A stretch of 64,000 nt of DNA, taken from positions 32,001-96,000 of the IMG/VR virus record IMGVR_UViG_3300045988_169015, one strand, 5' to 3'. Shown in pieces: positions 577-63,554 of this stretch. The DNA comes from a virus. The notes under the pieces are model-generated. The model was not told the DNA's origin. It did no database searches and saw only the letters and a program-made list of their open reading frames with translations. Made by a program: the position numbers and the translations under genes. The number at the start of each line of letters is the position of its first letter. The stretch's first letter is position 1.

Positions 577-594
577 GGGGATTTGGAAATTATT

Positions 595-11704: not shown

Positions 11705-11771
11705 TGTTTTTCATCCTTTCATAGTATTATATCCCCTCTTATCGAGGGGATTTGTTTTTGTTACAGTTACT

Positions 11772-11800: not shown

Positions 11801-11818
11801 GGGATTGTGGATGTGGAA

Positions 11819-12556
11819 TCAAATTTCTTTTTCGATAAAGGATTTAAGCGGCTCTCTAAGAGTGCAGTTTTCATGAAGCCATGTAAGGTAATCAATATCA
11901 GACTTTATATCAACGAATTTTTGACCTTTATACTTTCCAAAGGGCATAATGAACTCGTCAGAATTCTCCGCAGCAGGTGCCGAATAAGAGTTAATGTTGG
12001 GCTGTTCAAAAACATACTCAAAATGCTTACGGCTTGCAAGATAATCACACATATGTACAAACTGCTGTGCGGCAGTCACGGGCTTAGGGAGAACGATGTT
12101 GCTACGCTTATCTGTGTTCCAACCACCCATATGTGAAGCGATCATACTTGCTATTTTGTTTTTATCCGCCTGCGAGATAACTTCACTTCTGCTGTTACGA
12201 ACCCATTCAGCTGCGATGACAGGATGGTCAAAAACCGTATAAGTGCTGCCATTATCACCATGCTTTTTTGCATCGTGGAGTATTCCCGCAACACGGATCA
12301 TATCCTTGGTATCGTTGTCAAAATCAAACTGCTCAAGTGCAAGCAGGTCATTTGCAATTCCGACAAGAGCTTTAGTATGGCGAATTAATCCTTGTTCGCC
12401 CTGTGCGAATTTGGGGTGGTATTTGCCTGTACTTGATGCAGGAACCGTAAAGAAATAGTCTGGAGCGTCTTCAAGCATTTCTATACAAAACTGACGAATA
12501 TTGGAGTTTGTAATTGTGTCGAGTTCTGCTCTGAATGTTTCTGATTTTATACTCAT
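11819..12556 (-). CDS. HD-domain phosphohydrolase with DUF3820-like C-terminus
   Basis: H...HD motif (GILHDAKKHG). The C-terminal MPFGKYKGQKFVDI...DYLTWL resembles DUF3820. Confidence 0.75.
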   Translation of the reverse strand: MSIKSETFRAELDTITNSNIRQFCIEMLEDAPDYFFTVPASSTGKYHPKFAQGEQGLIRHTKALVGIANDLLALEQFDFDNDTKDMIRVAGILHDAKKHGDNGSTYTVFDHPVIAAEWVRNSRSEVISQADKNKIASMIASHMGGWNTDKRSNIVLPKPVTAAQQFVHMCDYLASRKHFEYVFEQPNINSYSAPAAENSDEFIMPFGKYKGQKFVDIKSDIDYLTWLHENCTLREPLKSFIEKEI

Positions 12557-27024: not shown

Positions 27025-27453
27025 TCACTCCTTTTTTACATATCCCATTTCCACCTGCCAGCAGAGAGTTGCCAGGGCATTACAAGCCTCGAAAAGTCCG
27101 GCCTTGTCGTCAAGAAATAAATTATAATATATTTTCAAACCGTCTCCATATCTGCCGATTTCCGGGATATTCTCGTTAATGGTATCGAATGGAAGGTTCT
27201 CATCATGAAGAAACTGAATATTCTTTTCGTTATGGGGATTGGCTGTAAACACGATGAAATAAGGATTTAAAATTGTTTTCGCTTTACGTATCAAATTCTT
27301 CGCATGGTCACAGCATTCGCTTTTATACGGCCTCACTGTATCGTCAAGGTCATATGCAATAATCAAGCGTTCATGCTCGATATAGGCATCCCTGAGACGC
27401 TTATACAGAAAACCACCTACGAAAGCATCGTCTTCTTTTACTGTTGATGTCAT
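27025..27453 (-). CDS. HAD-superfamily phosphatase/nucleotidase-like
   Basis: HAD motif I DxDxT (AYDLDDTV) and motif IV (FLDDK). Confidence 0.6.
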   Translation of the reverse strand: MTSTVKEDDAFVGGFLYKRLRDAYIEHERLIIAYDLDDTVRPYKSECCDHAKNLIRKAKTILNPYFIVFTANPHNEKNIQFLHDENLPFDTINENIPEIGRYGDGLKIYYNLFLDDKAGLFEACNALATLCWQVEMGYVKKE

Positions 27454-32215: not shown

Positions 32216-32300
32216 TGGTACGAGAGATGGGCTTCGAACCCACACGCATTCCTGCAGCAGTTTTTGAGACTGCTCTGTCTGCCTATTCCAGCACTCTCGC
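32216..32300 (-). tRNA. tRNA-Leu (anticodon CAA), type II, CCA encoded
   Basis: Hand-folded. Acceptor GCGAGAG/CTCTCGT, anticodon stem GCAGT/ACTGC, loop CTCAAAA, long variable arm, T-loop GGGTTCGAAGCCC. Confidence 0.85.
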
Positions 32301-32347
32301 ATATTTCGTTAATAATATAGCAACTGACGTTAGCTATTATTAACATC

Positions 32348-32430
32348 TGGTGCGGGTGACAGGACTTGAACCTGCACGCTTGCGCAATGGATCCTAAGTC
32401 TATCGTGTCTGCCAATTTCACCACACCCGC
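32348..32430 (-). tRNA. tRNA-Leu (anticodon TAG), type II, CCA encoded
   Basis: Acceptor GCGGGTG/CACCCGC, anticodon loop CTTAGGA (one A-C mismatch in the stem), long variable arm, T-loop AGGTTCAAGTCCT. Confidence 0.8.
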
Positions 32431-32434
32431 ATGT

Positions 32435-32511
32435 TGGTCTCCCAGATGGGATTCGAACCCATCCTGTAGGGATTTTAAGTCCCTTGTCTCCTGCCTCTGG
32501 ACTACTGGGAG
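32435..32511 (-). tRNA. tRNA with anticodon TAA (Leu codon UUA) but a short 5-nt variable loop
   Basis: Acceptor CTCCCAG/CTGGGAG, anticodon stem AGGGA/TCCCT, loop CTTAAAA, variable loop ACAGG, T-arm ATGGGTTCGAATCCCAT, then A73 and CCA. Confidence 0.75.
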
Positions 32512-32880
32512 TTATGTGCCCGTCTTTCCGGGCTGCCACGATGTCCAGCTTCGACATCTGCCGATTCGGGTCTTACGGCGTGACAACATTTCTTATGTTG
32601 CGCAACGAGCTGGATCCTTGCCCATCACACCCCTATACAGCGGTATTAAGGAACCCCTGCAAAACCTGTTTTTCACATTTCTGTTTTAACGTTATCTTGT
32701 GAGTTCTGGCTTCTGCACCCGTAGGCGTCTCCAATAAGCCGAGGCTGTATTTAAACTTGCCCGATCTACCCCTCGTCAGGGTCTTGATCTCATCAGGAGA
32801 CTTTGTACGTCCGCATTATAATTGTAACGGGCAACGGAGCACCCGTGCGGTCTCATTTCAATAACACCTATTCATACTAC
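32512..32880 (-). ncRNA. ORF-free stem-rich segment between tRNAs (candidate structured RNA)
   Basis: Successive hairpins GCCCG-tctttc-CGGGC, GATGTC-cagcttc-GACATC and CAACAT-ttctt-ATGTTG. No credible ORF. Strand assumed from the flanking tRNAs. Confidence 0.3.
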
Positions 32881-32952
32881 CAAAAGGATAGGACTCGAAC
32901 CTATGACACCTCGGTTAACAGCCGAGTGCTCTACCAACTGAGCTACCTCTGC
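32881..32952 (-). tRNA. tRNA-Asn(GTT)-like with frayed acceptor stem, no CCA
   Basis: Canonical D-arm (GCTCAGTTGGTAGAGC), anticodon arm CTCGG-CTGTTAA-CCGAG and T-arm ATAGGTTCGAGTCCTAT. Acceptor pairs 1:72 and 2:71 are mismatched. Confidence 0.55.
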
Positions 32953-33679
32953 ACGAATACCACAGTCAGACTTATGCGTACACTCAATACGCTTATCTTC
33001 CAACTGTATAACGCTGAGTGCGTTTACTGTACCGTCCATACATTATTTTGTTTGGTTGTATTACGGTCTTATTATTGATACAAGTTAATCTGTATCTCAA
33101 CCACTCAGACAGTTATATTACCATACCGCAAGCTGATGTGGATTTTTTCAGTTACAAGGGTGACACTAAGATAGTCTCCGCCACGTTTTACCCCTTGTTG
33201 TCATCTGTTATGCAGCACAGATGATCTTGGCCACTGAGTTTTCACCTACAAGCTTTGTCTGCATCTGCTTATAGACACCATTGGTGAGCCGCTCGGGTAC
33301 TTACCCCGAATCTCCTTCTGCAGTTAGGCGGCTTGTCATTAGCCCAACGGCTCATATATGCACCCTTACTGACCCCAAGTAAATTATATTAAGGTGTAGG
33401 GTGCTTGTACTCGGTTTCAGGAATTAGCCATCTCTCTTTAACGACGCTCACCGGCATAATTATCGTATGGTCACTTCACCAAAAAGCAAATCCATACTCA
33501 ACGTTTTGATGATTTTTTCAAGCCCCATCCTCACAAGGCATCAGAATCAAGTCTGTAAACGTTCTTCTGGCTTAATTCCTATCACACTTGTCTTAGACTC
33601 AGAGTTGATGTCTCCTATTGCCTGTTCTCCCATTTAGAAAGGTCGGTAGTGTTCACCATGTAATTTGTAAATAATTTTA
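32953..33679 (-). ncRNA. about 730-nt ORF-free structured segment flanked by tRNAs (candidate large ncRNA, ROOL/GOLLD-like context)
   Basis: No credible ORF on either strand. Many local stems, for example CATCTG-ttatgcagca-CAGATG and GAGCCG...CGGCTC. Identity not verified. Confidence 0.35.
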
Positions 33680-33754
33680 TGGATTCAGGTAACGGGATCG
33701 AACCGTTATTCTTAGAGCCAAAATCTAATGTTCTACCACTTAAACTAACCTGAA
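33680..33754 (-). tRNA. tRNA-Gln (anticodon TTG), CCA encoded
   Basis: Acceptor TTCAGGT/ACCTGAA (U1:A72), anticodon arm TTAGA-TTTTGGC-TCTAA, T-arm AACGGTTCGATCCCGTT. Confidence 0.85.
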
Positions 33755-34208
33755 ATATTTGTGCAGCTTAACGTACCGCACATGAGATTTCTCAACGATA
33801 GGATACTATGTTAATCTATAAATTATCCACCATCAACCAGCCCCGAGGATCACACACAGCCGATGGATTCGCCGCTTTAACCTATATCGGGGATTTCTAT
33901 GAACTCTATGATTTACAATTTACAATTTGAACTTTGAAGTGCAGCAAGTCTGCCATCAAGTACGCACGTTTGCTACTATAAATTCTGAACTTTAATGTTT
34001 AAAACAATTAAGCTTTGAATTTTAAACTTTCAGCTATTATTCGGACTTTAAACTCTGCCCGAAAACATCGTAGATACTCGATATTCTTAATATCTTTAGC
34101 ATTTGGAAGCTTTTACAGTTTCAAATTGTTTTGTTCATCATTTTAGACTGTTGATGTTCAGTTGAAACCAGTTAAGTGTTTTCGGTTGACGATGGATAAT
34201 CAGCTTAA

Positions 34209-34865
34209 TCAGTAGTTAATTTCGATTTCGGTGGTTGCATTTGCCACTGTAATGGCTGCGTCCACCTCAGCTTCGAAAGCGTCGATCTTATTTTTCAAGT
34301 CTTCGATTGCCTTCTTTGTGTCAATACCCTCGATAAGATCAAAAGTATTTTCATCGATGTACTTTGCTCTCGCCGCATTTATGATTTCCACCATTTCATC
34401 GGAAATAGTGTTATTACTGCTGTTTGTTCCATAAAGACCAATGATATATGTCTCGCAGGCTTTTGTCAGCTTCTCTCCGTTGTTATTCTGGAGCAGACTC
34501 TGCGTATTTGTATATTGAGTTGCCATGGTATTGAGCAGAGCCTTCATATAATCAATACCCGTCTGTTTCATATAAATAGCTTCGGCAACAGTCATTTGCT
34601 CTCCACCGATAGATACGATTGTGGAAGCGTTTGCCTTATTCACTGCCTTCTTGATGGCATTATTCCTGTTGATGAGAGCGACTATTTTATCGTAGCTGCC
34701 CTGCATCTCTGCCTTTACGTCAGTGATATTTTTGCCGTTTAGCGTGCGCATTGTATGCTTGCTTACGTTGCAGAATGTCGCACTGCGAATCTCTGCTGTG
34801 ATTCTGTTACCGAGCACCTTCAGCTCGGAAAGTGCCTTTGCGATCGTCATTTTTTCGTTGGTCAT
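34209..34865 (-). CDS. hypothetical coiled-coil protein
   Basis: Start set to the ATG at 34865 (MTNEKM), behind AAGGAGGAG. The longer ORF reads through a regulatory motif. Confidence 0.55.
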   Translation of the reverse strand: MTNEKMTIAKALSELKVLGNRITAEIRSATFCNVSKHTMRTLNGKNITDVKAEMQGSYDKIVALINRNNAIKKAVNKANASTIVSIGGEQMTVAEAIYMKQTGIDYMKALLNTMATQYTNTQSLLQNNNGEKLTKACETYIIGLYGTNSSNNTISDEMVEIINAARAKYIDENTFDLIEGIDTKKAIEDLKNKIDAFEAEVDAAITVANATTEIEINY

Positions 34866-34896
34866 GATGACTCCTCCTTGATTTTTAAATTGTAAA

Positions 34897-34912
34897 ATAT
34901 CCAATATGTTTT
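34897..34912 (-). repeat. 16-nt direct repeat ATATCCAATATGTTTT (copy 1)
   Basis: Identical 16-mer at 35169-35184. The two copies bracket tRNA-Lys. The core ATATCCAATATG equals the promoter core at 548-576 and 11772-11800. Confidence 0.7.
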
Positions 34913-34947
34913 CGCACTAATAAATAATAGTATAAAAAACATATATT

Positions 34948-35023
34948 TGGTGAGCCATTGGGGATTTGAACCCCAGACCAATAGTTTAAAAGACTACTGC
35001 TCTACCGACTGAGCTAATGACTC
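34948..35023 (-). tRNA. tRNA-Lys (anticodon TTT), CCA encoded
   Basis: Acceptor GAGTCAT/ATGGCTC (one G-U pair), D-arm GCTCAGTCGGTAGAGC, anticodon loop CTTTTAA, T-arm TGGGGTTCAAATCCCCA. Confidence 0.85.
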
Positions 35024-35184: not shown

Positions 35185-35239
35185 GGACTTCTTGGAATAA
35201 CGGCTCATTTCTGAACCGTTCTCCCTTGACTGTATTTAT

Positions 35240-35268
35240 ATTATATCAGATGAGTTTAAACTTGTCAA
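35240..35268 (-). promoter_or_regulatory. consensus sigma70-type promoter
   Basis: Minus strand reads TTGACA (35263-35268), a 17-nt spacer, then TATAAT (35240-35245). Upstream ACATCCACAATCGC matches the promoter at 11772-11800. Confidence 0.65.
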
Positions 35269-35323
35269 GCGATTGTGGATGTTGCTAAAAATTTTTATGT
35301 ACTGCCTTACATAAGGCAGCGGA

Positions 35324-44409: not shown

Positions 44410-45063
44410 TCAATTAACATCATTATCATTTGCTTCTTTGAGAATAATGACACCGATATACCAGTTATTTCCTCTTAAATAAATATTTCTGCCTTCATCG
44501 TCCGCAGTATTGATATCCTTTTCGGTAATAAGATCAATGCCTAAATCGTATTTTGTAATTAAGCCATTGATATGCTCGGCTACTTCATCTGAGCCGTCAA
44601 AATAATCGCCTTCGTAATCTTCGTCTTCCCCAATACTCCATTCAACATGGTAATAATCAGTGCCGAACCAACCTATATCATCGGTCATATACAGCCCGCC
44701 GTCCTTCTCCTCGGCTATCCAATGTATGGAAATACGATTATCATAATGCCTTGCGATTATCTCACGCCACATTTTGATCATTGGTATCCATGCTGTTTCG
44801 GCAAAGATATCAAAACTCGACTTATCCTGTCTGTCAGTTACATTTCCGATGTCATCGATCCATCCACGGCAGCGGATAATGTTTTCGGGATTATCGATTC
44901 TGTCGCCGAAGCCGAACCCGATGAGCACATTACCAAGCCAAGGCTCACCAAAGCCTGAAGTTTCTGCATTTGACGATGTGTACTGTACTATCTTATTGTG
45001 CAGATCCGTAAGGTCTGCGAAGTTTCCTGTAAATTCTATTTTAGTAGAACACCAATTAGGCAT
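44410..45063 (-). CDS. hypothetical protein, paralogue of 45610-46209 (DUF1281/Api92-like N-terminus)
   Basis: Start at the ATG at 45063 (MPNWCSTKIEFTGN), behind AAAGGAGAA. It shares the N-terminal MxNxCST.I.F.G and ETAW.P motifs with 45610-46209. Confidence 0.55.
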   Translation of the reverse strand: MPNWCSTKIEFTGNFADLTDLHNKIVQYTSSNAETSGFGEPWLGNVLIGFGFGDRIDNPENIIRCRGWIDDIGNVTDRQDKSSFDIFAETAWIPMIKMWREIIARHYDNRISIHWIAEEKDGGLYMTDDIGWFGTDYYHVEWSIGEDEDYEGDYFDGSDEVAEHINGLITKYDLGIDLITEKDINTADDEGRNIYLRGNNWYIGVIILKEANDNDVN

Positions 45064-45077
45064 AATGTTTTCTCCTT

Positions 45078-45242
45078 TCAATCTTCAATATCGTACCCAA
45101 AATGGCAAAATCCAATTAGGTCTGAGATATAATCTCCAATATCTTCTTCGTCAACGTCATCGGGAATTTCAACTTCTGAGGGCAACTCTTCAAAAAGCTT
45201 TTTGTCTCCGTCAGTGTCCCACATAATATTTACTGCTTTCAT
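45078..45242 (-). CDS. small acidic protein (54 aa, below the ORF-track cutoff)
   Basis: ATG at 45242 behind AAGGAG. Reads MKAVNIMWDTDGDKKLFEELPSEVEIPDDVDEEDIGDYISDLIGFCHFGYDIED and fills an otherwise empty gap. Confidence 0.45.
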   Translation of the reverse strand: MKAVNIMWDTDGDKKLFEELPSEVEIPDDVDEEDIGDYISDLIGFCHFGYDIED

Positions 45243-45609: not shown

Positions 45610-46209
45610 TTAATCAAAATCGCAGGTATCAAACAGTTCAAGCTTGTGAACTGACATAAACCAGTCTTCATTGACTTCAACTGCCACTTCCGCTTCCGCA
45701 AGAGACTTGACAGGCTCAAGTCCTGCTTTTTCAAAAACTCTGTTAACCTCTTTGAGCACCTCTTCTTCTGTGGCGCCGTAGAGGTAATCTGCATCGCTGC
45801 CTATATCGTAGTCAATGCAGTATGTCATGTCGCCAAATTCATTCATGTCGTTTGTGCAGTAGATATCGCAGCCGAACTCCTCTGCGCACCAGCTGAATGA
45901 AATGAGCTGCTCGTCATCTTTGGTATAGCATTTTGCAATTATCGCACTCCATATGCCAAGGCGAGGCGTCCATGCGGTTTCAGTATATATTGTTGCGCAA
46001 TCCCTGTCATATTCGATATCTCCTCTTAATGAGACCTTATCAGGATCGATTCCGAATTCATTGGCGATGTTGCGGAAGCTGCGTCTTTCGCAGTAGCTCA
46101 TATCAGGGTGTGCTTCATCTGAAACAGCGTGCTCGATCCTGTTGAAAAAATCTGTAAGTGCATCATCATTTCCAAAAAATCTTATCTGTGTAGAGCAAAT
46201 GTTAGCCAT
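45610..46209 (-). CDS. hypothetical protein, paralogue of 44410-45063
   Basis: Start at the ATG at 46209 (MANICSTQIRFFGND), behind GGAGGTAAC. Confidence 0.55.
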   Translation of the reverse strand: MANICSTQIRFFGNDDALTDFFNRIEHAVSDEAHPDMSYCERRSFRNIANEFGIDPDKVSLRGDIEYDRDCATIYTETAWTPRLGIWSAIIAKCYTKDDEQLISFSWCAEEFGCDIYCTNDMNEFGDMTYCIDYDIGSDADYLYGATEEEVLKEVNRVFEKAGLEPVKSLAEAEVAVEVNEDWFMSVHKLELFDTCDFD

Positions 46210-46268
46210 AATAGTTACCTCCAAATTCCATAAGCAGATAATCATAAAAACTTTTATCAGTGGTTGAA

Positions 46269-46496
46269 TTACCATGTAATGCGTTTGGGTATAAATTCAA
46301 TTTCTGCATTGCTATATGCAGTTATACAGTCTATCGGTGTATCAGGTTCGCCATCGAAATTTTGATATTTTGTGCATATTTTTGGCTCATGATCTTTGCG
46401 AGGATCAACATCAACAAATAACTTTCCGTTTTCGTTTTTATAAACGGGTCTGTTGTAACTGTCGTTTCCAATATAAATTAATGTTATTCTCATCAA
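46269..46496 (-). CDS. hypothetical small protein
   Basis: 75-aa ORF. It is the first gene after the structured array (minus-strand sense). Confidence 0.4.
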   Translation of the reverse strand: MMRITLIYIGNDSYNRPVYKNENGKLFVDVDPRKDHEPKICTKYQNFDGEPDTPIDCITAYSNAEIEFIPKRITW

Positions 46497-46578
46497 AAAA
46501 TCCTCCTATCAAATGTGAATTTTACTATCTTTTTCATTATTTATAACCTCCATTAAACAATTATTTTGTTTTGCAATT

Positions 46579-46698
46579 AGCATAACAAGATGTTTTCTAC
46601 AAAGGTTTAGATGTATTGGAGGAGAGTGTCCGTGACACCCGCTGATAAGCGGGGTGTAACTGGACTGATCGCCTCCTATAGTACAAAGCTATTATGCT
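46579..46698. ncRNA. array unit U0 (degenerate)
   Basis: Outer stem AGCATAA/TTATGCT, degenerate clamp CTACAAAGGTTTAG, long hairpin GGAGG...CACCCGC-tgataa-GCGGGGTG...CCTCC. Confidence 0.5.
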
Positions 46699-46715
46699 GA
46701 TTGCAGTTATCAAAA

Positions 46716-46837
46716 CCGAGCCTGGCGGCAATTTACTAAAACAGTTTAGATATGAGGGATCTGAAACGTCGGGCACTTGTCAGGTATGAATAGTGCCCGT
46801 CGGTGTAAGATCCCGAAATGCAGTTTGCCAAACTCGG
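46716..46837. ncRNA. array unit U1
   Basis: Outer stem CCGAG/CTCGG, clamp CTAAA-acag-TTTAG (46736-46749), long hairpin GGGATCT..GGGCACT/AGTGCCC..AGATCCC. Confidence 0.6.
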
Positions 46838-46845
46838 TTATGCAG

Positions 46846-46983
46846 CCGGAATATCCATGGTATCGCTAAAGGAATTTAGATATGAACCTTCTGAAAGAAG
46901 AGTCATCGACGCTTCAATCAACGAAGTTGATTGAGGGTCATCGACTCATCTTTCGAAGGTGCAGTGCATATTGGATATCACGG
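46846..46983. ncRNA. array unit U2
   Basis: Outer stem CCGgAATATCCA/TGGATATcaCGG, clamp CTAAA-ggaa-TTTAG (46866-46879), long hairpin ACCTTC..CAATCAAC-gaa-GTTGATTG..GAAGGT. Confidence 0.6.
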
Positions 46984-46991
46984 TTACTGAA

Positions 46992-47128
46992 TTTAATTGA
47001 AGTGCTTATTGTATTGCTGAAAGATTTTTAGATACAATGTCGTGGGTGCATCTTGAAGCTCGCACGTTTGCGAGCGGTTTTGTGATGATTCTCAATGACA
47101 TTATTGCATTTAAGGTGCTGCAATTATT
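46992..47128. ncRNA. array unit U3
   Basis: Outer stem TTAATTG/CAATTA, variant clamp CTGAAAGATTTTTAG (47017-47031), long hairpin AATGTC..GCTCGCA-cgtt-TGCGAGC..GACATT. Confidence 0.55.
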
Positions 47129-47140
47129 TATATATATTTC

Positions 47141-47261
47141 CTGACCGCCGAATTTTCGCTAAAAGCATTTAGATAACATGTATCACGGAGATGAGAAACA
47201 TCCAGCAGTGTGCTGGATGGCTCTCATCTGAGGGATTACATGTTTGCATTAGGACGGACAG
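47141..47261. ncRNA. array unit U4
   Basis: Outer stem CTGaCCGcC/GgaCGGaCAG, clamp CTAAA-agca-TTTAG (47159-47172), long hairpin CATGTA..GAGATGAGA..ATCCAGCA-gtg-TGCTGGAT..TCTCATCT..TACATG. Confidence 0.6.
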
Positions 47262-47279
47262 AAATCAGATCAGCAATTT

Positions 47280-47397
47280 CCGGCAGCAGTTGTTCGCTAA
47301 ATTGATTTAGATAATACCATCTTGTCTGAGGAAAGAGTACTGGGAGTGTCCCAGTACATTTCTTCGGACCAGATGCGTATTTGCATTTTGCCGCCGG
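47280..47397. ncRNA. array unit U5
   Basis: Outer stem CCGGCAGC/GCCGCCGG, clamp CTAAA-ttga-TTTAG (47297-47310), long hairpin CATCT..GTACTGGGA-gtg-TCCCAGTAC..AGATG. Confidence 0.6.
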
Positions 47398-47408
47398 GAA
47401 TTAAGAAA

Positions 47409-47530
47409 TCATAACACCGAATTGTCGCTAAAGTAATTTAGATATAAAGAATCACGACAGCGGCGTGAAGCGATGGGTGACGCATCACGAGCGCCGAGGG
47501 AGGGATTATTGATTGCATTTTGTGTTATGA
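47409..47530. ncRNA. array unit U6
   Basis: Perfect outer stem TCATAACAC/GTGTTATGA, clamp CTAAA-gtaa-TTTAG (47428-47441), GC-rich long hairpin (CGGCG..GCGCCG). Confidence 0.6.
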
Positions 47531-47543
47531 ATTAGGAATTATT

Positions 47544-47672
47544 CGGCTTGTGGAAACATATGCTTACTAAAGATATTTAGATAAGAGGCAGCATAAACGA
47601 TCTCGAACTCTGGAGGTCTCCAGGATGAGAAGATCGTGTTGCTGCGGACTTGAATGTTGTTTCCGCAAGTCG
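47544..47672. ncRNA. array unit U7
   Basis: 15-bp outer stem CGGCTTGTGGAAACA/TGTTTCCGCAAGTCG (two G-T pairs), clamp CTAAA-gata-TTTAG (47567-47580), long hairpin GCAGCA..CTCTGGAG-gt-CTCCAG..TGCTGC. Confidence 0.6.
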
Positions 47673-47680
47673 TTTTGCAG

Positions 47681-47983
47681 TTAGTGATTTGCCGCTATAG
47701 CGTCCAGCTCAGATTGGAATTCGGACACAACATATTCGGCGTCGTAATGCCACTGCTCATCGTTGTTTCTGCAGTCCTCATACATGTCTAATATGTCACG
47801 CCAAAGTTCCTGATTTGCAGTTACCTTTTCCTGCGTCTGAGCGCCATACTCTTCTTCGATAGTCATCGCCATATCTTCTGCGTTGTATTCACTCTTGACG
47901 AATTTATAAACATCGAAAGCATCGTAAGAACTAAGCACTGTGCCGTTGACAACGTATTCGCCATTACTGTTTCGTGTTACCAT
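47681..47983 (-). CDS. hypothetical acidic protein embedded in the array
   Basis: 100-aa ORF between U7 and U8. Its TAA stop is part of a TAACTGCAAAA motif. Confidence 0.55.
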   Translation of the reverse strand: MVTRNSNGEYVVNGTVLSSYDAFDVYKFVKSEYNAEDMAMTIEEEYGAQTQEKVTANQELWRDILDMYEDCRNNDEQWHYDAEYVVSEFQSELDAIAANH

Positions 47984-48016
47984 ATGTATTCCTCCGTTAC
48001 AATTATAATAGTATAA

Positions 48017-48143
48017 CTCTCAGCCGCAGCGATTTACTAAAACCATTTAGATTAAGAGTCCGTGATTTACGAGCATCGTACGGGAGTGATAACTGTCGTC
48101 GATGCTTATAAATCCGGATGATATGCACTTTGCTGACTGAGAG
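48017..48143. ncRNA. array unit U8
   Basis: Outer stem CTCAGcCgcAGC/GCTgaCTGAG, clamp CTAAA-acca-TTTAG (48037-48050), long hairpin TCCG..ATTTA..AGCATCG/CGATGCT..TAAAT..CGGA. Followed by TTTGCAGTTA and T7. Confidence 0.6.
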
Positions 48144-48158
48144 TTTGCAGTTATTTTT

Positions 48159-48989
48159 TTATTCCATATTCGCAAAAGGATCGCTGAGGCTGATGTAGTT
48201 TTCCGCCATAGAAACCTTAAGTGCCTTATAGAAATAGTAGTCGGGTGACTGAATCTCGAGTCTGAGTTTTCTGAGGGCATTCTCTCTGGTGTAAACTTCA
48301 TCGAACCAGTGAAGAATAAATCTTCCGTCAAACATGATATAGTTTTTGAGAGTATAATAAGCGCCAGCCTTCTTGAAGCTGCGAATAAACGCATCAGCAA
48401 GCTCGTGGTTCTTGAAGTATCTGCCGCCCTTCATGCCTGTGCCTTCGGGGATATCAAACGCTCTCTTTGCAATTACCAGTTCAATAGCCTCTGCAATTAC
48501 AGCGAAGTCTGAGTATGACCAAGCGGTATTTATAAGGCTCTGAAGACTGGGCTGGAACTCCTTAGCGAAGTTCATAAATATATCGGCGATGCTATTCACA
48601 TCAAAGAAATGCTTGCGCTCTTCAAATGCAACGGGGTCGTTATCTTTGAGGTGAGCCAGCAGCTTAGCTTCCTTACAGGTATAGAGGATACTGTACTTAT
48701 AGGTATAGAAATTTGCGATTACCTGATTGATACTTGTGGTGACACTCTCCTGTCTCATAAGTCTAATGAACTGAGCGGAGATCCAACGTCTTGTTGTTCT
48801 GGGGTTATAGACTTCGCCGCAGATCGTCTTGCCAAAATACTTACCGTGCGCAGGAATTGAGTTATCATTGTCGGCAGGGATTGGAGTATTAGCCATATCG
48901 AGCATTGACTTTGCCACCAGTTTTGCGAACTCATTCATATCGAGGTTGCTGTTGTTAAGGTTAACGTTGTTCGTGTTGTTGTTAGTCAT
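48159..48989 (-). CDS. hypothetical protein (third gene of the RT operon)
   Basis: 276-aa ORF with an Asn-rich N-terminus. No motif recognised. Confidence 0.55.
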   Translation of the reverse strand: MTNNNTNNVNLNNSNLDMNEFAKLVAKSMLDMANTPIPADNDNSIPAHGKYFGKTICGEVYNPRTTRRWISAQFIRLMRQESVTTSINQVIANFYTYKYSILYTCKEAKLLAHLKDNDPVAFEERKHFFDVNSIADIFMNFAKEFQPSLQSLINTAWSYSDFAVIAEAIELVIAKRAFDIPEGTGMKGGRYFKNHELADAFIRSFKKAGAYYTLKNYIMFDGRFILHWFDEVYTRENALRKLRLEIQSPDYYFYKALKVSMAENYISLSDPFANME

Positions 48990-49032
48990 AATAAATTTCT
49001 CCTTTTAATATGTATGGTTTATGGTTTTCGGG

Positions 49033-49476
49033 TTACTGGATATAGCTGCGATAGATTATGAAACTATCGGTCAGTTTACGGAACCAGCCGGGCGTTTCCC
49101 ATTTAAGGGTACCGTTAAGACTTCCGATTATAATAGCGGCACAAAGCTTTGCGTGCATTACATCTCGGTTATCGTTACGGTAAAAGTCGGTCATGCTCAG
49201 CTCATCGGCAGACAGAGGTTTAAACAGGTAAGTCTTGCGGCTGTTCTCACTGCTCGGTGACGAATGAATAAAGTTCTCGTAAAGAGTTACCAGATCGTCA
49301 TAGCCGGACACAGGAGACCCCAACGAGTCGATAACTTCGCCGCCTATCATATCAGCTACAAGCTTGCCGTTTTCCATTACGACACGCTTATCTATTCTGA
49401 TATTCTTTTTGACCAGATCGAACCTGAGCTTATGCCCCGATTCTGATTTTGCAATTAACGCATCATACAGCGTCAT
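49033..49476 (-). CDS. hypothetical protein translationally coupled to the RT
   Basis: Start at the ATG at 49476, behind a GGAGG that lies inside the RT's last codons. It overlaps the RT stop by 14 nt. Confidence 0.55.
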   Translation of the reverse strand: MTLYDALIAKSESGHKLRFDLVKKNIRIDKRVVMENGKLVADMIGGEVIDSLGSPVSGYDDLVTLYENFIHSSPSSENSRKTYLFKPLSADELSMTDFYRNDNRDVMHAKLCAAIIIGSLNGTLKWETPGWFRKLTDSFIIYRSYIQ

Positions 49477-50842
49477 GTATAACACCTCCTTTTATTTTGT
49501 TTATCTCGCTCAGCCAGAGTTCGTGGTCGGTATGATAGACTTTGTACATATGATTAAGGCTGTACCAACCGGCAGCCCTTACCATATCTATTCCGTCTGC
49601 CACAGTCCTTTTCCTGTTGGCTTTAACGTTTATTCCTTTCTGGAACTGGATCGTGTAATTGGGGTTATTATCTGTAGAACCGAGACCCCAAACCTTATTG
49701 CGACCTGTTATCACTGCTCTTAAACAATCTTTACAATACCTGTCTATCATGTCGATATCATGTTTGCAGTTAACGGTTCCGAACAGATACTGACACATGC
49801 CGAACTGGTTGCTGTTCTCTTCATATGCAAGGAACAGATACCTCTGGAGCCGCCTGCATATCCGCTTGGTCTCCGCTTCGGTAGCCGGTCTTTTGTGTTC
49901 TCTGCTCCACTGTATCGTTTCAGATTTTATATGCTGCTCGATACCTCTGAGAGTTTTTGCAGACACAGTTATCAAGTCGCCACGTATCTTAAAGCCCAGA
50001 AACTCGAACCAGTCTTTATCTGCCTGTAACGCTTTGACCTTTTTGGGATTAAGAGTTACACCCTTTGGTTCGAGCATCTGCTTTATAACTTCGAGGGCGT
50101 GGTCAGCTTCCCTGCCGAGGATTATGATATCGTCAGAATAGCGATAATAGATAACATCCATATTACTTATGGTCTCATCTATATCTCTCAAGCACAGGTC
50201 AGCCAGCAGACAGGCGATAGGATTGCCCTGACTTAGTGATTTATATCTGTATTCGGGTTTTCCGTTTATGATTATAGTATCGTCGTGATAATGTTTAATT
50301 ACTATGTTATCGATACAATCCTTATCGGGAGTTATGATATCGAGTGTTCTGTCAAGCGTTTCACGATTTACGGTATCAAAGAACTTGCTCAGGTCAAGCT
50401 TGTATCCTTTGTACCATTTCTTACGGTTCATCTCACTGACAAGAGCCTTTACGGTCTTGCCGGCTGACAGTCCCCTGCGGTAAGAAACGCAGTTAGGATG
50501 TATCAGGTGGTGAAAATCGTCGTAATACATCTTATAGAATGTATTGCACAGAACTCGGTCAAACGTTTCGAGAACTGCAAGCTTGCGGACTTCTTCAAAG
50601 TTTCGCTTCTCTGCTTCGGCGAATGTCAACCAGTTGTCTGTAAGCTTGTCAATGTACATCTCTACAGGGGCTTTGAACTCGATTTTGCAATTAGCGATAA
50701 GGTCGCCTGCAAGAGCCCACGCTGCATCTTGCGAAAACGTGGACAGCACGCACATATCGAGTCCCTTGCGGTCGATGTGCAAAAGCGCTCTTTCATGCAG
50801 CTCTCGGTCGTTCACAAACCGTTCAAGTTTATTCGGTTTCAT
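49463..50842 (-). CDS. reverse transcriptase (group-II-intron-like/retron-like fingers-palm plus thumb)
   Basis: 459 aa with RT blocks SYRRGLSAGK (2), YKLDLSKFFDTV (3/A), LSQGNPIACLLADLCL (4/B), YYRYSDDIIILG (5/C, YxDD), LNPKKVK (6/D) and FEFLGFKI (7/E). Also has a thumb-like AAGWYSLNHMY. Confidence 0.9.
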   Translation of the reverse strand: MKPNKLERFVNDRELHERALLHIDRKGLDMCVLSTFSQDAAWALAGDLIANCKIEFKAPVEMYIDKLTDNWLTFAEAEKRNFEEVRKLAVLETFDRVLCNTFYKMYYDDFHHLIHPNCVSYRRGLSAGKTVKALVSEMNRKKWYKGYKLDLSKFFDTVNRETLDRTLDIITPDKDCIDNIVIKHYHDDTIIINGKPEYRYKSLSQGNPIACLLADLCLRDIDETISNMDVIYYRYSDDIIILGREADHALEVIKQMLEPKGVTLNPKKVKALQADKDWFEFLGFKIRGDLITVSAKTLRGIEQHIKSETIQWSREHKRPATEAETKRICRRLQRYLFLAYEENSNQFGMCQYLFGTVNCKHDIDMIDRYCKDCLRAVITGRNKVWGLGSTDNNPNYTIQFQKGINVKANRKRTVADGIDMVRAAGWYSLNHMYKVYHTDHELWLSEINKIKGGVIHDAV

Positions 50843-50958
50843 TTATCTCTTCTCCTTTCCGATTATTCTTATTACAGTTATCAGTTCATCGTCATACAGA
50901 TAACATTCGCAGTCATCTCCATGACGGCATGATGTTGTCCCCTTGTCATCATATACAG

Positions 50959-51126
50959 TTATTCTTCTTCCACCTCCCAAGTATCTGTTTCTGCATCGTC
51001 AAGATAGAGATTACAGTTATTATAAAATGATTTCTCTGCCGCTTTCACCGCTGCATCTTTATTTTCAGCTTCGATGTGAAGCGTTGTATATCCAGTTACT
51101 AAAAGTGTTACACTGTACTTCTTCAT
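50959..51126 (-). CDS. small protein (55 aa, below the ORF-track cutoff)
   Basis: ATG at 51126 behind GAGGAGG. Reads MKKYSVTLLVTGYTTLHIEAENKDAAVKAAEKSF... Confidence 0.4.
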   Translation of the reverse strand: MKKYSVTLLVTGYTTLHIEAENKDAAVKAAEKSFYNNCNLYLDDAETDTWEVEEE

Positions 51127-51371
51127 TTATAAGCCTCCTCTACTGTATATGTAACGATGTTACCGTCGGTCAGACTTATTGTTTTCAGATTCTCCCTTTC
51201 GTCGCACGTTTCATCTACGTGTATGTGAAGGTTGTCATATTCCAATAAGTCAAGGCAGTATGCCCTCTGCAGTTCTTCAACTGCGGTATCATAATCATCG
51301 CAGAGCTGAACAAGAAGTATGCCGTCATAAGCACTGCGAATAATTACAGCATAACCTATCTGATTCATCAC
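51123..51371 (-). CDS. hypothetical small protein
   Basis: 82-aa ORF. Confidence 0.4.
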   Translation of the reverse strand: MMNQIGYAVIIRSAYDGILLVQLCDDYDTAVEELQRAYCLDLLEYDNLHIHVDETCDERENLKTISLTDGNIVTYTVEEAYK

Positions 51372-51374
51372 CTA

Positions 51375-51548
51375 TCACTTCTCCTTTATAGATATGATTA
51401 CATTTTTCCTAACCTTGAAATTATCGAAAACGAATAACATCTTTGTTTCCTTTTCAAATTTTCCGGTTAGAATAACGTCGCACGTCACCAGCGGTTTCGT
51501 ATGGACTTTTATTCTTTTGGTTATTTCATATGACTGACCTATGTTCAT
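51375..51548 (-). CDS. small protein (57 aa, below the ORF-track cutoff)
   Basis: ATG at 51548 preceded by TAACTGCAAAAGGAGAACGAGA. Fills the gap between listed ORFs. Confidence 0.4.
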   Translation of the reverse strand: MNIGQSYEITKRIKVHTKPLVTCDVILTGKFEKETKMLFVFDNFKVRKNVIISIKEK

Positions 51549-53997: not shown

Positions 53998-55380
53998 TTA
54001 TTTTTTGTAGTAATCAAGTTCATCATTGACGACGAACACGTACTCAGCTTCAGTTTCATCATACCTACAGATGGTATTGTTCTTAGTAAAGGCAACTGCG
54101 TCAATTGGAGTTACGATAATATTGAACTTATCATAATCTTCATCTTCATTGGAACTATAGTCAATAAGCTTGTAGATCTTATTATCTTTACCGATATAGA
54201 AATCGTCAGTACCGTCTGTTTCAATCATTGAACCGTCTGCAAGCATAAGATATTCAGAGTTGTAGAGCAGAGTTGCCTTTATCATATTGTCCCAGAGCGA
54301 CTCATCTTCTTCATAATCAGTTTCATCATCTGGGAAAGAATTGATAACAGTTTTACCGGTCTTGTCCTTGCCGTAGTATCTGCCGTAATCGAAGTCGTCA
54401 TATCCGTCATCGCCGTCCCAGCCGTAGTATCTTTTACTGGCATAACCTCGGTAGCTGTATATAGCTTCAATGTATTCGTACTTTGCAGTTTTACCCTCGG
54501 CTACATCCTTGATAATTGTATTTACTCTTTCGATAACGTTATAAAGCTCATCAAGAACGATATACTCGCTTGTGGTATGAGCATTGTAATATCCGCTGCT
54601 GAAGTTTACAGCTGCAACACCGAGAGCGGGAGCTACATATGAGATGTCAGAGCAGGAACCATATGCAGTCTTAAAGCCGTATGTGTCAATGAACTTCTCA
54701 AATTCGGGATTATCGCAGTCATAGTACACGCTGTCGTTTGAGCCTTTGCGATCCACTTCAATTATGAAGTTGATGTTTATGTCTTCGAGATTGATAATGC
54801 TATTACGGATATCGTCTGCGAAGTAATCAGCTCCCACACAGCCTATCTCTTCGTCTTCGGTAAAGAGAATGTAAGGCTTAATGCCATCTCTGATACTCAT
54901 AAGTGCAGTATAGATACCGCATCTGTCATCGCCGCCGATACCCTGCGGAGACCAGACGCAGCCCTTATCGGACATATAAATGTCTCGAACGGGTTCCTTA
55001 TGAACAGTATCCATATGAGCACACATCATTACGGGAACATTGCCTTTTGCGAATAAGTATCCGTCCGCATAGACAACATCATAACCGAAGCCGACGAGTA
55101 TCGAGTAAAGAAAATCTTTGAGAGCATACTGCTCAAGTCGGATTATCTTTTCAAACAGAGATGAAAGAGGTCTGAAATCTCTTGTGCTGCCGATGATAGA
55201 ATTATATTTTTCGATCATCTTATTTACGTTGTCGAGATCGGGTGTTTTGGGATTGAGGTTTCTTACGTGTTTTTCCGGTTCGTATTTCTTTACCTTGGGT
55301 GATAAAGTATTAAATGCGGAAATATTTGCGGTTGCGGGAGTGGTAGTAGTAGTTGTAGTAGTTGTTGTAGGCATAGCCAT
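53998..55380 (-). CDS. M28/M42-like zinc peptidase-domain protein with N-terminal poly-Thr tract
   Basis: MCAHMDTVH, GIGGDDRCG and FTEDEEIGCVGA resemble co-catalytic metallopeptidase ligand motifs. The N-terminus is MAMPTTTTTTTTTTPA. About 150 extra C-terminal residues. Confidence 0.6.
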   Translation of the reverse strand: MAMPTTTTTTTTTTPATANISAFNTLSPKVKKYEPEKHVRNLNPKTPDLDNVNKMIEKYNSIIGSTRDFRPLSSLFEKIIRLEQYALKDFLYSILVGFGYDVVYADGYLFAKGNVPVMMCAHMDTVHKEPVRDIYMSDKGCVWSPQGIGGDDRCGIYTALMSIRDGIKPYILFTEDEEIGCVGADYFADDIRNSIINLEDININFIIEVDRKGSNDSVYYDCDNPEFEKFIDTYGFKTAYGSCSDISYVAPALGVAAVNFSSGYYNAHTTSEYIVLDELYNVIERVNTIIKDVAEGKTAKYEYIEAIYSYRGYASKRYYGWDGDDGYDDFDYGRYYGKDKTGKTVINSFPDDETDYEEDESLWDNMIKATLLYNSEYLMLADGSMIETDGTDDFYIGKDNKIYKLIDYSSNEDEDYDKFNIIVTPIDAVAFTKNNTICRYDETEAEYVFVVNDELDYYKK

Positions 55381-63077: not shown

Positions 63078-63525
63078 AGTTGTCACCTCCCTCCGGAGGG
63101 AATTTCCGCCACGTATTGCCAGTACGGGCGGATTTTTCTATGTATAACTATGTGTCACACCCCAAAGACATAGAGACTTTGGGCATAGTTTTTGTGTACT
63201 TGTTATTTTCACCCTTTATGTATAGACATATGCAACGTTGCCAAACGATTGATAATATTCTACACGCTTATTCAGCTCTCCCGCTTTTAGCCGTGTATAA
63301 GCCCTATCAAAAGCGCCGTGCGCCCATTTTATCGGTGTTTTATAGACTTTACATATGCGTACAGTCAAGCCCCATTGGCAAGCCGTGCGTAAAGTCATTC
63401 AGTACGTATTCAGTTTTCAAGGTACACCCACAAAGTGGGGATTTTTACCCACCGACAAGCGGTGCTTTTTGGATATTCAAGGTGTTTTCTGTCTCTGTCG
63501 TTTCTGTTCCCTTGACTGTAGCTAT

Positions 63526-63554
63526 AATATATCTCATAATATCCAATATGTCAA
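63526..63554 (-). promoter_or_regulatory. sigma70-type promoter with conserved core TTGACATATTGGATAT
   Basis: Minus strand reads TTGACA (63549-63554), a 17-nt spacer, then TATATT (63526-63531). It points leftward into the gene string. Confidence 0.55.

What the first reader, a model, noticed from the sequence alone, without database searches (positions are those of the whole stretch)
48159..50842. Orphan reverse transcriptase operon lacking intron, DGR or classical retron context
The 459-aa ORF has all seven RT blocks, including YSDD, plus a thumb-like C-terminus (AAGWYSLNHMY).

Why it does not fit the known contexts:
- Neighbouring ORFs abut it closely on both sides (its stop overlaps the next ATG by 14 nt, with the RBS GGAGG inside the RT's last codons). 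That leaves no room for group II intron RNA domains.
- Block 4 reads LSQGNPIACLLADL. This is neither the DGR-type IGxxxSQ nor the retron PQG..TSP consensus.
- I could not see a template/variable repeat pair.

The two co-transcribed ORFs (148 and 276 aa) have no motif I recognise, and they lead directly into the structured array. A phage-borne RT with two dedicated unknown partners is a candidate new RT-based module. Whether it acts as counter-defence, superinfection exclusion or in genome replication is open.
Basis: partly seen in the sequence, partly recalled or inferred. Interest (0 to 1): 0.75.

Follow-up and report, generated by a model that had tools for sequence, protein, structure and literature searches.

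The report
Phage UG27 reverse transcriptase with RNA array
The "orphan" reverse transcriptase is a divergent member of the known phage-borne UG27 family; by homology, with its two partner proteins, it should copy the nine RNA hairpins encoded next to it into short single-stranded DNA hairpins whose biological role is still unknown.

Summary
There is an intact 459-aa reverse transcriptase (RT; YSDD at residue 235) at 49463-50842(-). Its stop overlaps the next ORF by 14 nt, and a 276-aa ORF and a repeat array follow.

The "orphan / new module" reading does not hold. PADLOC profiles assign all three proteins to one described system:
- RT: RT_UG27, 5e-86.
- Small partner: RTas346.
- Large partner: RTas337.

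This is the UG27 system of Mestre et al. 2022 (class 2 UG/Abi, common in gut phages).

The adjacent array (46574-48144) is part of the system. It has nine units of about 125-140 nt. Each unit has a basal stem, a U(G/U)YA motif (UGCA in 7 of 9), a long variable hairpin, and AUCUAAA-N4-UUUAG. Folding z-scores reach -8.1, and pairing covaries strongly.

A September 2026 preprint shows experimentally that UG27 RT plus both partners copy each unit's central hairpin into 50-100-nt ssDNA. Here I predict nine cDNAs of 74-90 nt.

No group II intron, DGR or retron features were found.

The locus is a divergent sub-clade: short units, array after the large partner, and an acidic ORF inside the array. The biological role remains unknown.

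The parts
49463..50842 (-). UG27-type reverse transcriptase, 459 aa, YSDD at residues 235-238
   Evidence: PADLOC RT_UG27 5.1e-86, 287 bits; next best RT_UG26, 158 bits. Pfam RVT_1 3e-21. Motif positions.
49033..49476 (-). Small accessory protein (sORF; cluster 346 / RTas346), 147 aa. Its ATG overlaps the RT stop by 14 nt.
   Evidence: PADLOC RTas346 7e-18 over 143 of 147 profile positions. Junction read. Found next to RT homologues in 27 of 28 viral loci.
48159..48989 (-). Large accessory protein (bORF; cluster 337 / RTas337), 276 aa, predicted all-alpha.
   Evidence: PADLOC RTas337 1e-20. AF2 model: pLDDT 75, pTM 0.69. No PDB fold match, best E = 0.7. No Pfam or PHROG match.
46574..48144 (-). 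ncRNA template array: nine units, interrupted by one ORF between unit 1 and unit 2.
   Evidence: Nine AUCUAAA-N4-UUUAG motifs, all on the minus strand and all in this span. Covariance model R1 finds exactly these nine units and nothing else in the 64-kb window.
48014..48144 (-). Unit 1; predicted template 48127..48050 (78 nt).
   Evidence: R1 70.6 bits. Fold z = -6.7. Architecture.
47681..47983 (-). 100-aa acidic ORF (pI 4.05) embedded in the array, with a GGAGG RBS. Whether it belongs to the system is not established.
   Evidence: Conserved at this position in L001 and L002 (93% aa) and as a 104-aa gene in L029. No Pfam, PHROG or PADLOC match. pI.
47544..47670 (-). Unit 2; predicted template 47654..47580 (75 nt; its 5' motif is UUCA).
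   Evidence: R1 69.5 bits. z = -6.6.
47405..47533 (-). Unit 3; predicted template 47517..47441 (77 nt).
   Evidence: R1 72.6 bits. z = -3.6.
47274..47401 (-). Unit 4; predicted template 47385..47310 (76 nt).
   Evidence: R1 95.1 bits. z = -6.95.
47136..47264 (-). Unit 5; predicted template 47248..47172 (77 nt).
   Evidence: R1 103.6 bits. z = -8.1.
46994..47124 (-). Unit 6, possibly decaying: weak basal stem and an altered motif, AUCUAAAAAUCUUUCAG. Predicted template 47108..47031 (78 nt).
   Evidence: R1 only 23.3 bits, E = 0.029. z = -2.5. The orthologous units in L001 and L002 keep the canonical motif and score 40-41 bits.
46843..46984 (-). Unit 7, with a longer hairpin; predicted template 46968..46879 (90 nt).
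   Evidence: R1 46.7 bits. z = -7.8.
46713..46838 (-). Unit 8; predicted template 46822..46749 (74 nt).
   Evidence: R1 93.1 bits. z = -6.95.
46574..46701 (-). Unit 9; predicted template 46685..46610 (76 nt; its 5' motif is UGUA).
   Evidence: R1 86.4 bits. z = -4.9.

Best explanation
This is a UG27 retroelement (class 2 UG/Abi reverse transcriptase system) carried by a large tailed phage.

**Components**
- The RT, the 147-aa sORF and the 276-aa bORF. The first two are translationally coupled.
- An array of nine structured RNA units, presumably transcribed on the same RNA. This is inferred: same strand, no terminator found between them.

**The RNA unit**
- A sequence-variable basal stem brackets the unit.
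- Two short conserved single-stranded motifs flank a long, sequence-variable central hairpin: U(G/U)YA on the 5' side (UGCA in 7 of 9 units) and AUCUAAA-N4-UUUAG on the 3' side.

**Predicted reaction**
This is inferred by homology with five UG27 systems tested in the 2026 preprint.
- The RT/sORF/bORF complex starts DNA synthesis at the AUC.
- It copies the central hairpin and stops after the 5' motif.
- It therefore releases nine different ssDNA hairpins of about 74-90 nt. Their sequences equal the window's plus strand at 48050-48127, 47580-47654, and so on.

**What is shown here**
- Family membership of all three proteins.
- The unit architecture and its covariation.
- Conserved synteny.
- Purifying selection on the RT.

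**What is inferred**
- cDNA production and its boundaries in this particular locus.
- The biological role. It is unknown even for the tested systems. My best guess, at low confidence (about 0.3), is that the hairpin DNAs act early in infection as protein-binding decoys or aptamers against host factors (counter-defence), not by base-pairing to a target.

The confidence given for this explanation refers to the identity of the system and the predicted biochemical output, not to the biological role.
For: **Proteins**
- RT_UG27 287 bits against 158 for the next group; RTas346 and RTas337 hits on the two partners.
- The three genes co-occur in 25 of 28 IMG/VR loci holding an RT homologue.
- RT codon-position identity to L029 is 0.88 / 0.92 / 0.57, which indicates purifying selection.

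**RNA units**
- Nine motif copies, minus strand only.
- Constant spacing of 71-75 nt between the 5' motif and AUC; 87 nt in unit 7.
- Fold z-scores from -2.5 to -8.1; seven of nine are at or below -4.9.
- All 12 basal-stem pairs show changes on both sides.
- On 44 units, 75.7% of cells pair, against 44.7% in shuffles and about 38% for slid partners. The covariation score is 0.649 against 0.18, with 0 of 500 shuffles as high.
- 25 compensatory pairs against the L029 orthologues.

**Comparison with a canonical locus**
- The cultured Bacteroides phage BS-TP1 has RT_UG27 at 755 bits, RTas346 and RTas337, plus 8 units carrying AUC-N8-UANAG in the same 16-nt frame.

**Literature**
- PMC9226505.
- bioRxiv 10.64898/2026.09.22.753630: 50-100-nt ssDNA, abolished by YSAA and by deleting either accessory ORF, with start at AUC and stop after UUYA.

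**Context**
- Phage genes in the window: NrdD, DNA ligase, DNA polymerase, DnaB-like helicase, and six tRNAs.
- Near-identical IMG/VR contigs of 111 and 146 kb.
Against: - No experiment or transcript data exist for this locus.
- The conserved motifs differ from the published consensus at one letter each: UGCA mostly, against UUYA; and UUUAG against UANAG.
- The published covariance models were not available to me, so unit membership rests on architecture and my own models.
- Scores to the UG27 profiles are much lower than for a canonical member (287 / 63 / 73 bits against 755 / 192 / 434). This is a distant branch.
- My model R2 does not detect the BS-TP1 units.
- Unit 6 is weak.
- The covariation alignment was fitted to the model, which inflates the pairing counts.
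- Nothing supports the decoy role beyond the lack of complementarity to the rest of the window and the early-gene context.
Confidence: 0.85

Rival explanations
1. A phage-carried defence system (DRT-like). The RT module protects the infected cell or lysogen against competing phages (superinfection exclusion or abortive infection), as most UG/Abi RTs do.
For: - PADLOC files the three profiles under 'DRT'.
- The RT's next-best matches are defence RTs: UG26, UG17, Drt3a, Drt9.
- Other class 2 UG RTs use ncRNA templates for defence, as cited.
Against: - Mestre et al. found no defence-island enrichment for UG27. They found it mostly in viral genomes and proposed a non-defence role.
- Here it sits among early and replication genes of a >110-kb phage. 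I did not look for an integrase or defence neighbours.
- No effector-like domain is present in either partner.
Confidence: 0.15
2. The hairpin cDNAs or RNAs serve phage genome replication or packaging, for example as primers, origin-like hairpins or regulators of phage transcripts.
For: The module lies on the same strand and in the same long gene block as the DNA polymerase, helicase and ligase.
Against: - The hairpin cores match nothing else in the 64-kb window; the best match is 12 nt at E = 0.25.
- The preprint reports no complementarity to phage or host genomes.
- Core sequences drift almost neutrally between related phages: 65% identity against 57% at RT third codon positions.
- Units are gained and lost between close relatives. 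That is hard to reconcile with an essential replication element.
Confidence: 0.07
3. A non-UG27 retroelement after all: a retron-like, group II intron-like or DGR RT in an unusual context.
For: - The generic RT domain matches solved retron-type, group II and Cas1-fused RTs at 1e-9 to 1e-12.
- A basal stem bracketing a templated hairpin resembles the retron a1/a2 layout.
Against: - The UG27 profile outscores every retron and CRISPR-RT profile by more than 190 bits.
- No Rfam retron or intron RNA at E <= 1.
- No TR/VR pair.
- The UG27-specific partners are present.
Confidence: 0.02

Closest known systems
UG27 reverse transcriptase systems (Mestre et al. 2022, PMC9226505; Li et al. 2026, bioRxiv 10.64898/2026.09.22.753630). 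The cultured example found here is Bacteroides phage BS-TP1, gp79 / gp80 / gp82.
   Same: - RT family, with small (cluster 346) and large (cluster 337) partners.
- YSDD active site.
- Phage location.
- Array of sequence-diverse but structurally uniform RNA units.
- Conserved AUC...NAG motif in the same 16-nt frame, and a short 5' motif bracketing the templated hairpin.
- Unit gain and loss between relatives.
   Different: - Distant branch: RT about 30-33% identical to the two GenBank phage hits (H1, H2 = BS-TP1), 459 aa against 420 aa in BS-TP1, and far lower profile scores.
- Units are 125-140 nt, so they fit the preprint's minor class of about 135 nt without a pseudoknot, not the 149/167-nt classes.
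- The template is about 75 nt; in BS-TP1 it is about 100 nt by eye.
- The 5' motif is UGCA (7 of 9), not UUYA. The 3' motif is UUUAG, not UANAG.
- The array lies after bORF instead of between RT and sORF.
- RT and sORF overlap by 14 nt.
- An acidic 100-aa ORF sits inside the array.
Retrons (msr-msd RNA plus RT)
   Same: An RT copies a hairpin-forming stretch of a structured ncRNA, bracketed by a basal stem, into a short ssDNA hairpin.
   Different: - No msr/msd Rfam match, and weak retron RT profile scores.
- Many units per locus.
- Two accessory proteins are needed for synthesis itself (shown in homologues).
- No toxin or effector partner.
- No evidence for a branched RNA-DNA product was reported.
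DRT2 (UG2) and DRT9 (UG28), class 2 UG/Abi defence RTs
   Same: Same RT class; they depend on a neighbouring structured ncRNA.
   Different: According to the preprint, other class 2 UG RTs make long or concatemeric cDNA products. From my own knowledge, DRT2 makes concatemeric cDNA and DRT9 makes poly-dA, both from a single ncRNA and without accessory proteins, and both act in host defence. UG27 makes many discrete short hairpins and is phage-borne.
Diversity-generating retroelements of phages
   Same: A phage-encoded RT with an accessory protein.
   Different: No TR/VR pair, no Avd-like partner, and no target gene. The RT scores to UG27.

Membership tests
UG27 system | The RT scores best to the UG27 RT profile. 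| tested here: met
   RT_UG27 5.1e-86, 287.2 bits, covering residues 79-446 (profile positions 65-416 of 420). The runner-up, RT_UG26, scores 157.7 bits.
UG27 system | An adjacent small accessory protein (cluster 346 / RTas346 / sORF). | tested here: met
   RTas346 7.1e-18, profile positions 2-144 of 147. It overlaps the RT stop by 14 nt.
UG27 system | An adjacent large accessory protein (cluster 337 / RTas337 / bORF). | tested here: met
   RTas337 1.1e-20. It lies 43 nt after sORF.
UG27 system | Catalytic YSDD motif. | tested here: met
   YRYSDDIIILG at residues 233-243. D237 and D238 are invariant in 34 homologues.
UG27 system | An array of ncRNA units with a basal stem and a long central hairpin, diverse in sequence but conserved in structure. 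| tested here: met
   - Nine units.
- z-scores down to -8.1.
- Covariation 0.649 against 0.18, with 0 of 500 shuffles as high.
- Caveat: the alignment was fitted to my own model.
UG27 system | The published conserved motifs: AUCNNNNNNNUANAG on the 3' side and UUYA on the 5' side of the central hairpin. Also matches to the published covariance models. | tested here: inconclusive
   - The window has AUC-N8-UUUAG, and on the 5' side UGCA in 7 units, UUCA in 1 and UGUA in 1.
- The canonical BS-TP1 array also reads AUC-N8-UANAG in my hands.
- The frame is therefore the same and one letter differs in each motif.
- Relatives L003 and L030 bridge the two forms, with UAAAG/UUAAG and UUCA.
- The published models were not available.
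UG27 system | RT-, sORF- and bORF-dependent synthesis of 50-100-nt ssDNA from each unit. | not testable with these tools
   Predicted products are 74-90 nt, from motif spacing. Shown experimentally only for five other systems.
UG27 system | Phage or prophage location. | tested here: met
   - PHROG hits to NrdD, ligase, DNA polymerase and DnaB-like helicase.
- Six tRNAs.
- 97-98% identical RTs on IMG/VR contigs of 146 and 111 kb.
Group II intron RT | Flanking intron RNA domains (I-VI) and a maturase/X domain. | tested here: not met
   No Rfam match at E <= 1 in 46000-51500. Only 116 nt lie upstream, and the downstream neighbour overlaps by 14 nt.
Diversity-generating retroelement | A TR/VR near-repeat pair and an Avd-type accessory gene. 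| tested here: not met
   No direct repeat of 40 nt or more involves the region. The partners match the UG27 accessory profiles, not Avd.
Retron | A retron-clade RT and an msr-msd ncRNA. | tested here: not met
   No retron RT profile appears among the 25 best PADLOC hits, whose weakest is about 40 bits, against 287 for UG27. No Rfam retron RNA.

The most novel reading that the evidence does not exclude
The window's clade would be a distinct UG27 subtype of large, apparently virulent phages. Ribosome-binding sites and promoters suggest a Bacillota host. The subtype is marked by short pseudoknot-less units, a UGCA/UUUAG motif pair, and an acidic ORF embedded in the array. In this reading, the nine different hairpin ssDNAs are a multiplexed set of structure-specific decoys or aptamers, each neutralising a different host DNA-sensing or DNA-cutting defence protein. 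Turnover of units between relatives would then record an arms race.
Probability: 0.15. Interest if true: 0.8.

Novelty: new member of a known kind. Interest (0 to 1): 0.3.

Why it matters
The finding's central claim, a new RT module, dissolves. The three-gene set was catalogued in 2022, and its RNA array and cDNA products were described in 2026.

What remains useful:
- It is a clean, fully delimited example from a distant branch of the family, with nine units and predicted cDNA boundaries.
- It shows which features are invariant across the family: the AUC start, the 16-nt frame, the basal stem and the constant template length.
- It shows which features are free to vary: the motif letters, the array position and the pseudoknot.
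- It points to a cultured phage, Bacteroides phage BS-TP1, whose RT is mis-annotated as a tail protein. The still-unknown biological role could be tested genetically there.

Tried and rejected
- **DNA search of 46300-51000 against GenBank phages:** no match.
- **MAFFT alignment of 27 loosely cut units:** too poor for a model. Re-cutting at the motifs fixed this.
- **RNAalifold on that alignment:** recovered only the basal stem and a small CUAAA/UUUAG hairpin. That small hairpin is not conserved in L003, L030 or BS-TP1, so I treat it as lineage-specific or fortuitous and left it out of the model.
- **Model R2:** reaches L003, L030 and L016 but not the more distant loci or BS-TP1. A plain AUC-N7/8-UANAG pattern search is not specific in most distant loci.
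- **sORF structure prediction:** failed, pLDDT 39 with 3 sequences.
- **bORF model:** confident, but no PDB fold or sequence relative.
- **Hairpin cores against the rest of the window:** nothing above chance.
- **Shared k-mers among cores:** nothing clearly beyond shuffles once orthologous pairs are discounted.
- **Faster-than-neutral divergence of the cores:** not supported. Cores are 65% identical, scaffold 74%, RT third codon positions 57%.
- **Literature search for other work on UG27 or phage RT function:** only the two papers cited.
Full report
**1. What is in the sequence**

All genes in this part of the window are on the minus strand.

- **RT.** The RT ORF is 49463..50842(-), 459 aa. 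It starts at an ATG preceded by AGGAG. Pfam RVT_1 covers residues 82-286, nearly the whole profile, at E = 3e-21.
- **Second ORF.** The RT stop (49465-49463) overlaps the next ATG (49476) by 14 nt, and AAGGAGG lies in the last RT codons. From that ATG the ORF is 147 aa, not 148.
- **Third ORF.** It is 48159..48989(-), 276 aa, 43 nt further on, with its own AAGGAG.
- **Upstream.** There is a 116-nt gap to the previous gene.

**2. What it is**

PADLOC profiles identify all three proteins as one catalogued system.

| Protein | Best profile | E-value | Bits |
|---|---|---|---|
| RT | RT_UG27 | 5e-86 | 287 (runner-up RT_UG26, 158) |
| 147-aa ORF | RTas346 | 7e-18 | 63 |
| 276-aa ORF | RTas337 | 1e-20 | 73 |

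Mestre et al. [quoted passage not shown]
- Neither cluster has a recognisable domain.
- UG27 is not enriched in defence islands.
- It occurs in about 1,450 dereplicated predicted gut-phage genomes.
- A putative structured ncRNA lies next to it.

A preprint of September 2026 (bioRxiv 10.64898/2026.09.22.753630) goes further.
- It names the partners sORF and bORF.
- UG27 loci carry variable arrays of structured ncRNA units. Unit lengths cluster at about 149 and 167 nt, with a minor class of about 135 nt lacking a pseudoknot.
- For five systems expressed in E. coli, the central hairpin of every unit is copied into 50-100-nt ssDNA.
- Synthesis starts at the AUC of an AUC...UANAG motif and ends after a UUYA motif.
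- Synthesis is lost in a YSAA mutant and when either accessory ORF is deleted.
- The biological role is explicitly left open. No complementarity to phage or host genomes was seen.

**3. The array belongs to the system**

- **Motif copies.** Immediately after bORF the minus strand carries nine copies of AUCUAAA-N4-UUUAG. The AUC positions are 48052, 47582, 47443, 47312, 47174, 47033, 46881, 46751 and 46612. With one mismatch allowed, the pattern also hits two sites with an altered start (ATATAAA) at 549 and 52776. All nine ATCTAAA-type copies lie in 46612-48052.
- **Spacing.** A U(G/U)YA motif lies 71-75 nt upstream of each AUC (87 nt in unit 7). It is UGCA in seven units, UUCA in one and UGUA in one.
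- **Basal stem.** A stem of about 9-13 bp, of unrelated sequence in each unit, brackets the whole unit.
- **Central hairpin.** The stretch between the two motifs folds as one long imperfect hairpin. Unit folding z-scores are -6.7, -6.6, -3.6, -6.95, -8.1, -2.5, -7.8, -6.95 and -4.9.
- **Model R1.** I built it from 14 units of the window and of L029. It recovers all nine window units and nothing else in the 64 kb. It also finds 9-10 units in each close relative and 3-5 in L003 and L030.
- **Covariation.** On the 44 aligned units, 75.7% of cells are paired. This compares with 44.7% after shuffling and about 38% with slid partners. All 38 pairs change on both sides. The covariation score is 0.649 against 0.18, with 0 of 500 shuffles as high. 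The alignment was fitted to the model, so these numbers lean towards the structure. An independent MAFFT/RNAalifold run already shows compensatory changes at all 12 basal-stem pairs. A sequence-only pairwise alignment to L029 gives 25 compensatory pairs.
- **Unit 6.** It is weak: 23 bits, z = -2.5, an altered motif and a poor basal stem. Its orthologues in L001 and L002 are better preserved.
- **Predicted templates.** They are 74-90 nt, inside the 50-100-nt range reported.

**4. Relatives and conservation**

- **Close relatives.** RTs 97-98% identical lie on IMG/VR contigs of 146 and 111 kb (L001 and L002). An 87% relative is L029. The next are 48% identical and below.
- **Synteny.** With iterated HMMs, RT, sORF and bORF occur together in 25 of 28 viral loci. 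One of the other three loci is truncated.
- **Array position.** Usually a gap of 0.4-1.8 kb lies between RT and sORF, where the canonical array sits. In the window's clade RT and sORF overlap and the array follows bORF. A 100-aa acidic ORF (pI 4.05) lies between units 1 and 2. It is conserved in L001, L002 and L029.
- **Unit turnover.** L029 has one extra unit ahead of unit 1. It has a single unit where the window has units 6 and 7. This is the unit gain and loss the preprint describes.
- **Selection.** RT codon-position identities to L029 are 0.88 / 0.92 / 0.57, which shows purifying selection. Hairpin cores are 65% identical and the scaffold 74%. So the cores drift nearly neutrally under a structural constraint, without accelerated diversification.
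- **A cultured relative.** Bacteroides phage BS-TP1 (PQ571274) carries a canonical UG27: RT 755 bits (annotated 'tail protein'), RTas346 192 bits, RTas337 434 bits. A 1.35-kb unannotated gap holds eight AUC-N8-UANAG motifs spaced 141-180 nt apart.
- **Motif frame.** The 16-nt frame of the BS-TP1 motif is the same as in the window. L003 and L030 show intermediate letters, UAAAG/UUAAG and UUCA.

The window is therefore a distant branch with short units, of the 'about 135 nt, no pseudoknot' kind. My model R2 reaches L016 (155-171-nt units) but not BS-TP1.

**5. Exclusions**

- No Rfam family at E <= 1 in 46000-51500. At gathering thresholds the whole window shows only tRNAs.
- No TR/VR-like repeat.
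- Retron, CRISPR-associated and other UG profiles score far below UG27.
- PDB sequence matches of the RT are generic RT-domain hits.
- The bORF model is confident (pLDDT 75, all-alpha) but has no PDB fold match, best E = 0.7, and no sequence match.
- The sORF model failed.

**6. Context**

The window belongs to a large tailed phage.
- It encodes NrdD, ATP-dependent ligase, DNA polymerase, DnaB-like helicase, NAMPT and six tRNAs.
- All genes run in one direction.
- Around the module are many small acidic proteins of unknown function.
- GGAGG ribosome-binding sites and TTGACA/TATAAT-type promoter repeats suggest a Bacillota-type host. This is inference only.

**7. Mechanism and verdict**

Family membership, unit architecture and synteny are shown here. 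The rest is inferred by homology:
- The RT/sORF/bORF complex starts at each AUC.
- It copies the central hairpin.
- It stops after the U(G/U)YA motif.
- It thereby gives nine distinct ssDNA hairpins.

The role is unknown. Lack of complementarity (preprint), near-neutral drift of the cores and unit turnover favour a structure- or protein-directed function, such as decoys against host factors. A base-pairing or replication role looks less likely, but this is speculative.

The claim of an orphan, possibly new module is not. This is a new, divergent member of a known and recently characterised kind.

Noticed in passing
window, minus strand: 14 copies between 45933 and 51570 (e.g. 48145-48153, 47675-47683, 46701-46709, 46571-46579; also inside the RT at 49764 and 50685): The 9-mer TAAYTGYAA occurs 23 times against 4.6 expected. 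21 copies are on the coding strand, and 14 are clustered in and around the UG27 module. They fall in different reading frames, and some lie at the stop codons of bORF and orf100 just before units 1, 2 and 9. The motif is also frequent on the sense strand in L001, L002 and L029 (12-15 per 13 kb, including four tandem copies in an intergenic gap of L029), with at most one sense-strand copy in the more distant UG27 loci. It is probably a lineage-specific promoter, processing or regulatory signal. Its function is unknown.
   Followed up: partly
window 47681-47983 (-): A 100-aa, very acidic ORF (pI 4.05; 22 D+E against 6 K+R) with a GGAGG RBS sits between array units 1 and 2. It is conserved in L001, L002 and L029. 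It matches no Pfam, PHROG or PADLOC family. It could be a fourth component or an unrelated early protein.
   Followed up: partly
L031 (Bacteroides phage BS-TP1, PQ571274.1, 79351-83904): This cultured phage carries a canonical UG27 system. The RT (gp79) is annotated as 'tail protein', and the partners (gp80, gp82) as hypothetical. The 1.35-kb gap between gp79 and gp80 is unannotated but holds eight AUC-N8-UANAG units.
   Followed up: yes
window 46994-47124 (-), compared with L001 9725-9858 and L002 9725-9855: Array unit 6 looks decayed in the window: a 1-nt insertion and a T>C change in the 3' motif, a weak basal stem, and 23 bits. Its orthologues in the 97-98% relatives keep the canonical motif and score about 40 bits.
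   Followed up: partly
L029 8217-8344 and 9376-9532, compared with window 46843-47124: Unit gain and loss between close relatives. L029 has an extra unit ahead of the one orthologous to window unit 1, and a single 157-nt unit where the window has units 6 and 7.
   Followed up: partly
window 547-602, 11771-11826, 35222-35294, 63508-63554: A repeated element of about 50 nt. Read on the minus strand it is CCCTTGACA - 17 nt - TATAAT. These are four strong sigma-70-type promoter-like sites pointing in the direction of the genes. The UG27 module lies between the copies at 63.5 kb and 35.2 kb.
   Followed up: no
window 32216-35023 (-): A cluster of six tRNA genes: Leu-CAA, Leu-TAG, Leu-TAA, Asn-GTT, Gln-TTG and Lys-TTT.
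   Followed up: no
window 44410-45081 (-) and 45610-46275 (-): Two neighbouring ORFs of 223 and 221 aa look like paralogues. They share N(W/I)CST.I.F.G near the N-terminus and ETAW(I/T)P further on. Neither has a Pfam or PHROG match.
   Followed up: no
window 53998-55380 (-): A 460-aa ORF begins with a run of ten threonines (MAMPTTTTTTTTTTPATAN). It matches phage peptidase-like PHROGs (phrog_34186 and phrog_4191).
   Followed up: no
window 1128-3284 (-) and 27453-28919 (-): Auxiliary metabolic genes: an NrdD-like anaerobic ribonucleotide reductase and a nicotinamide phosphoribosyltransferase.
   Followed up: no
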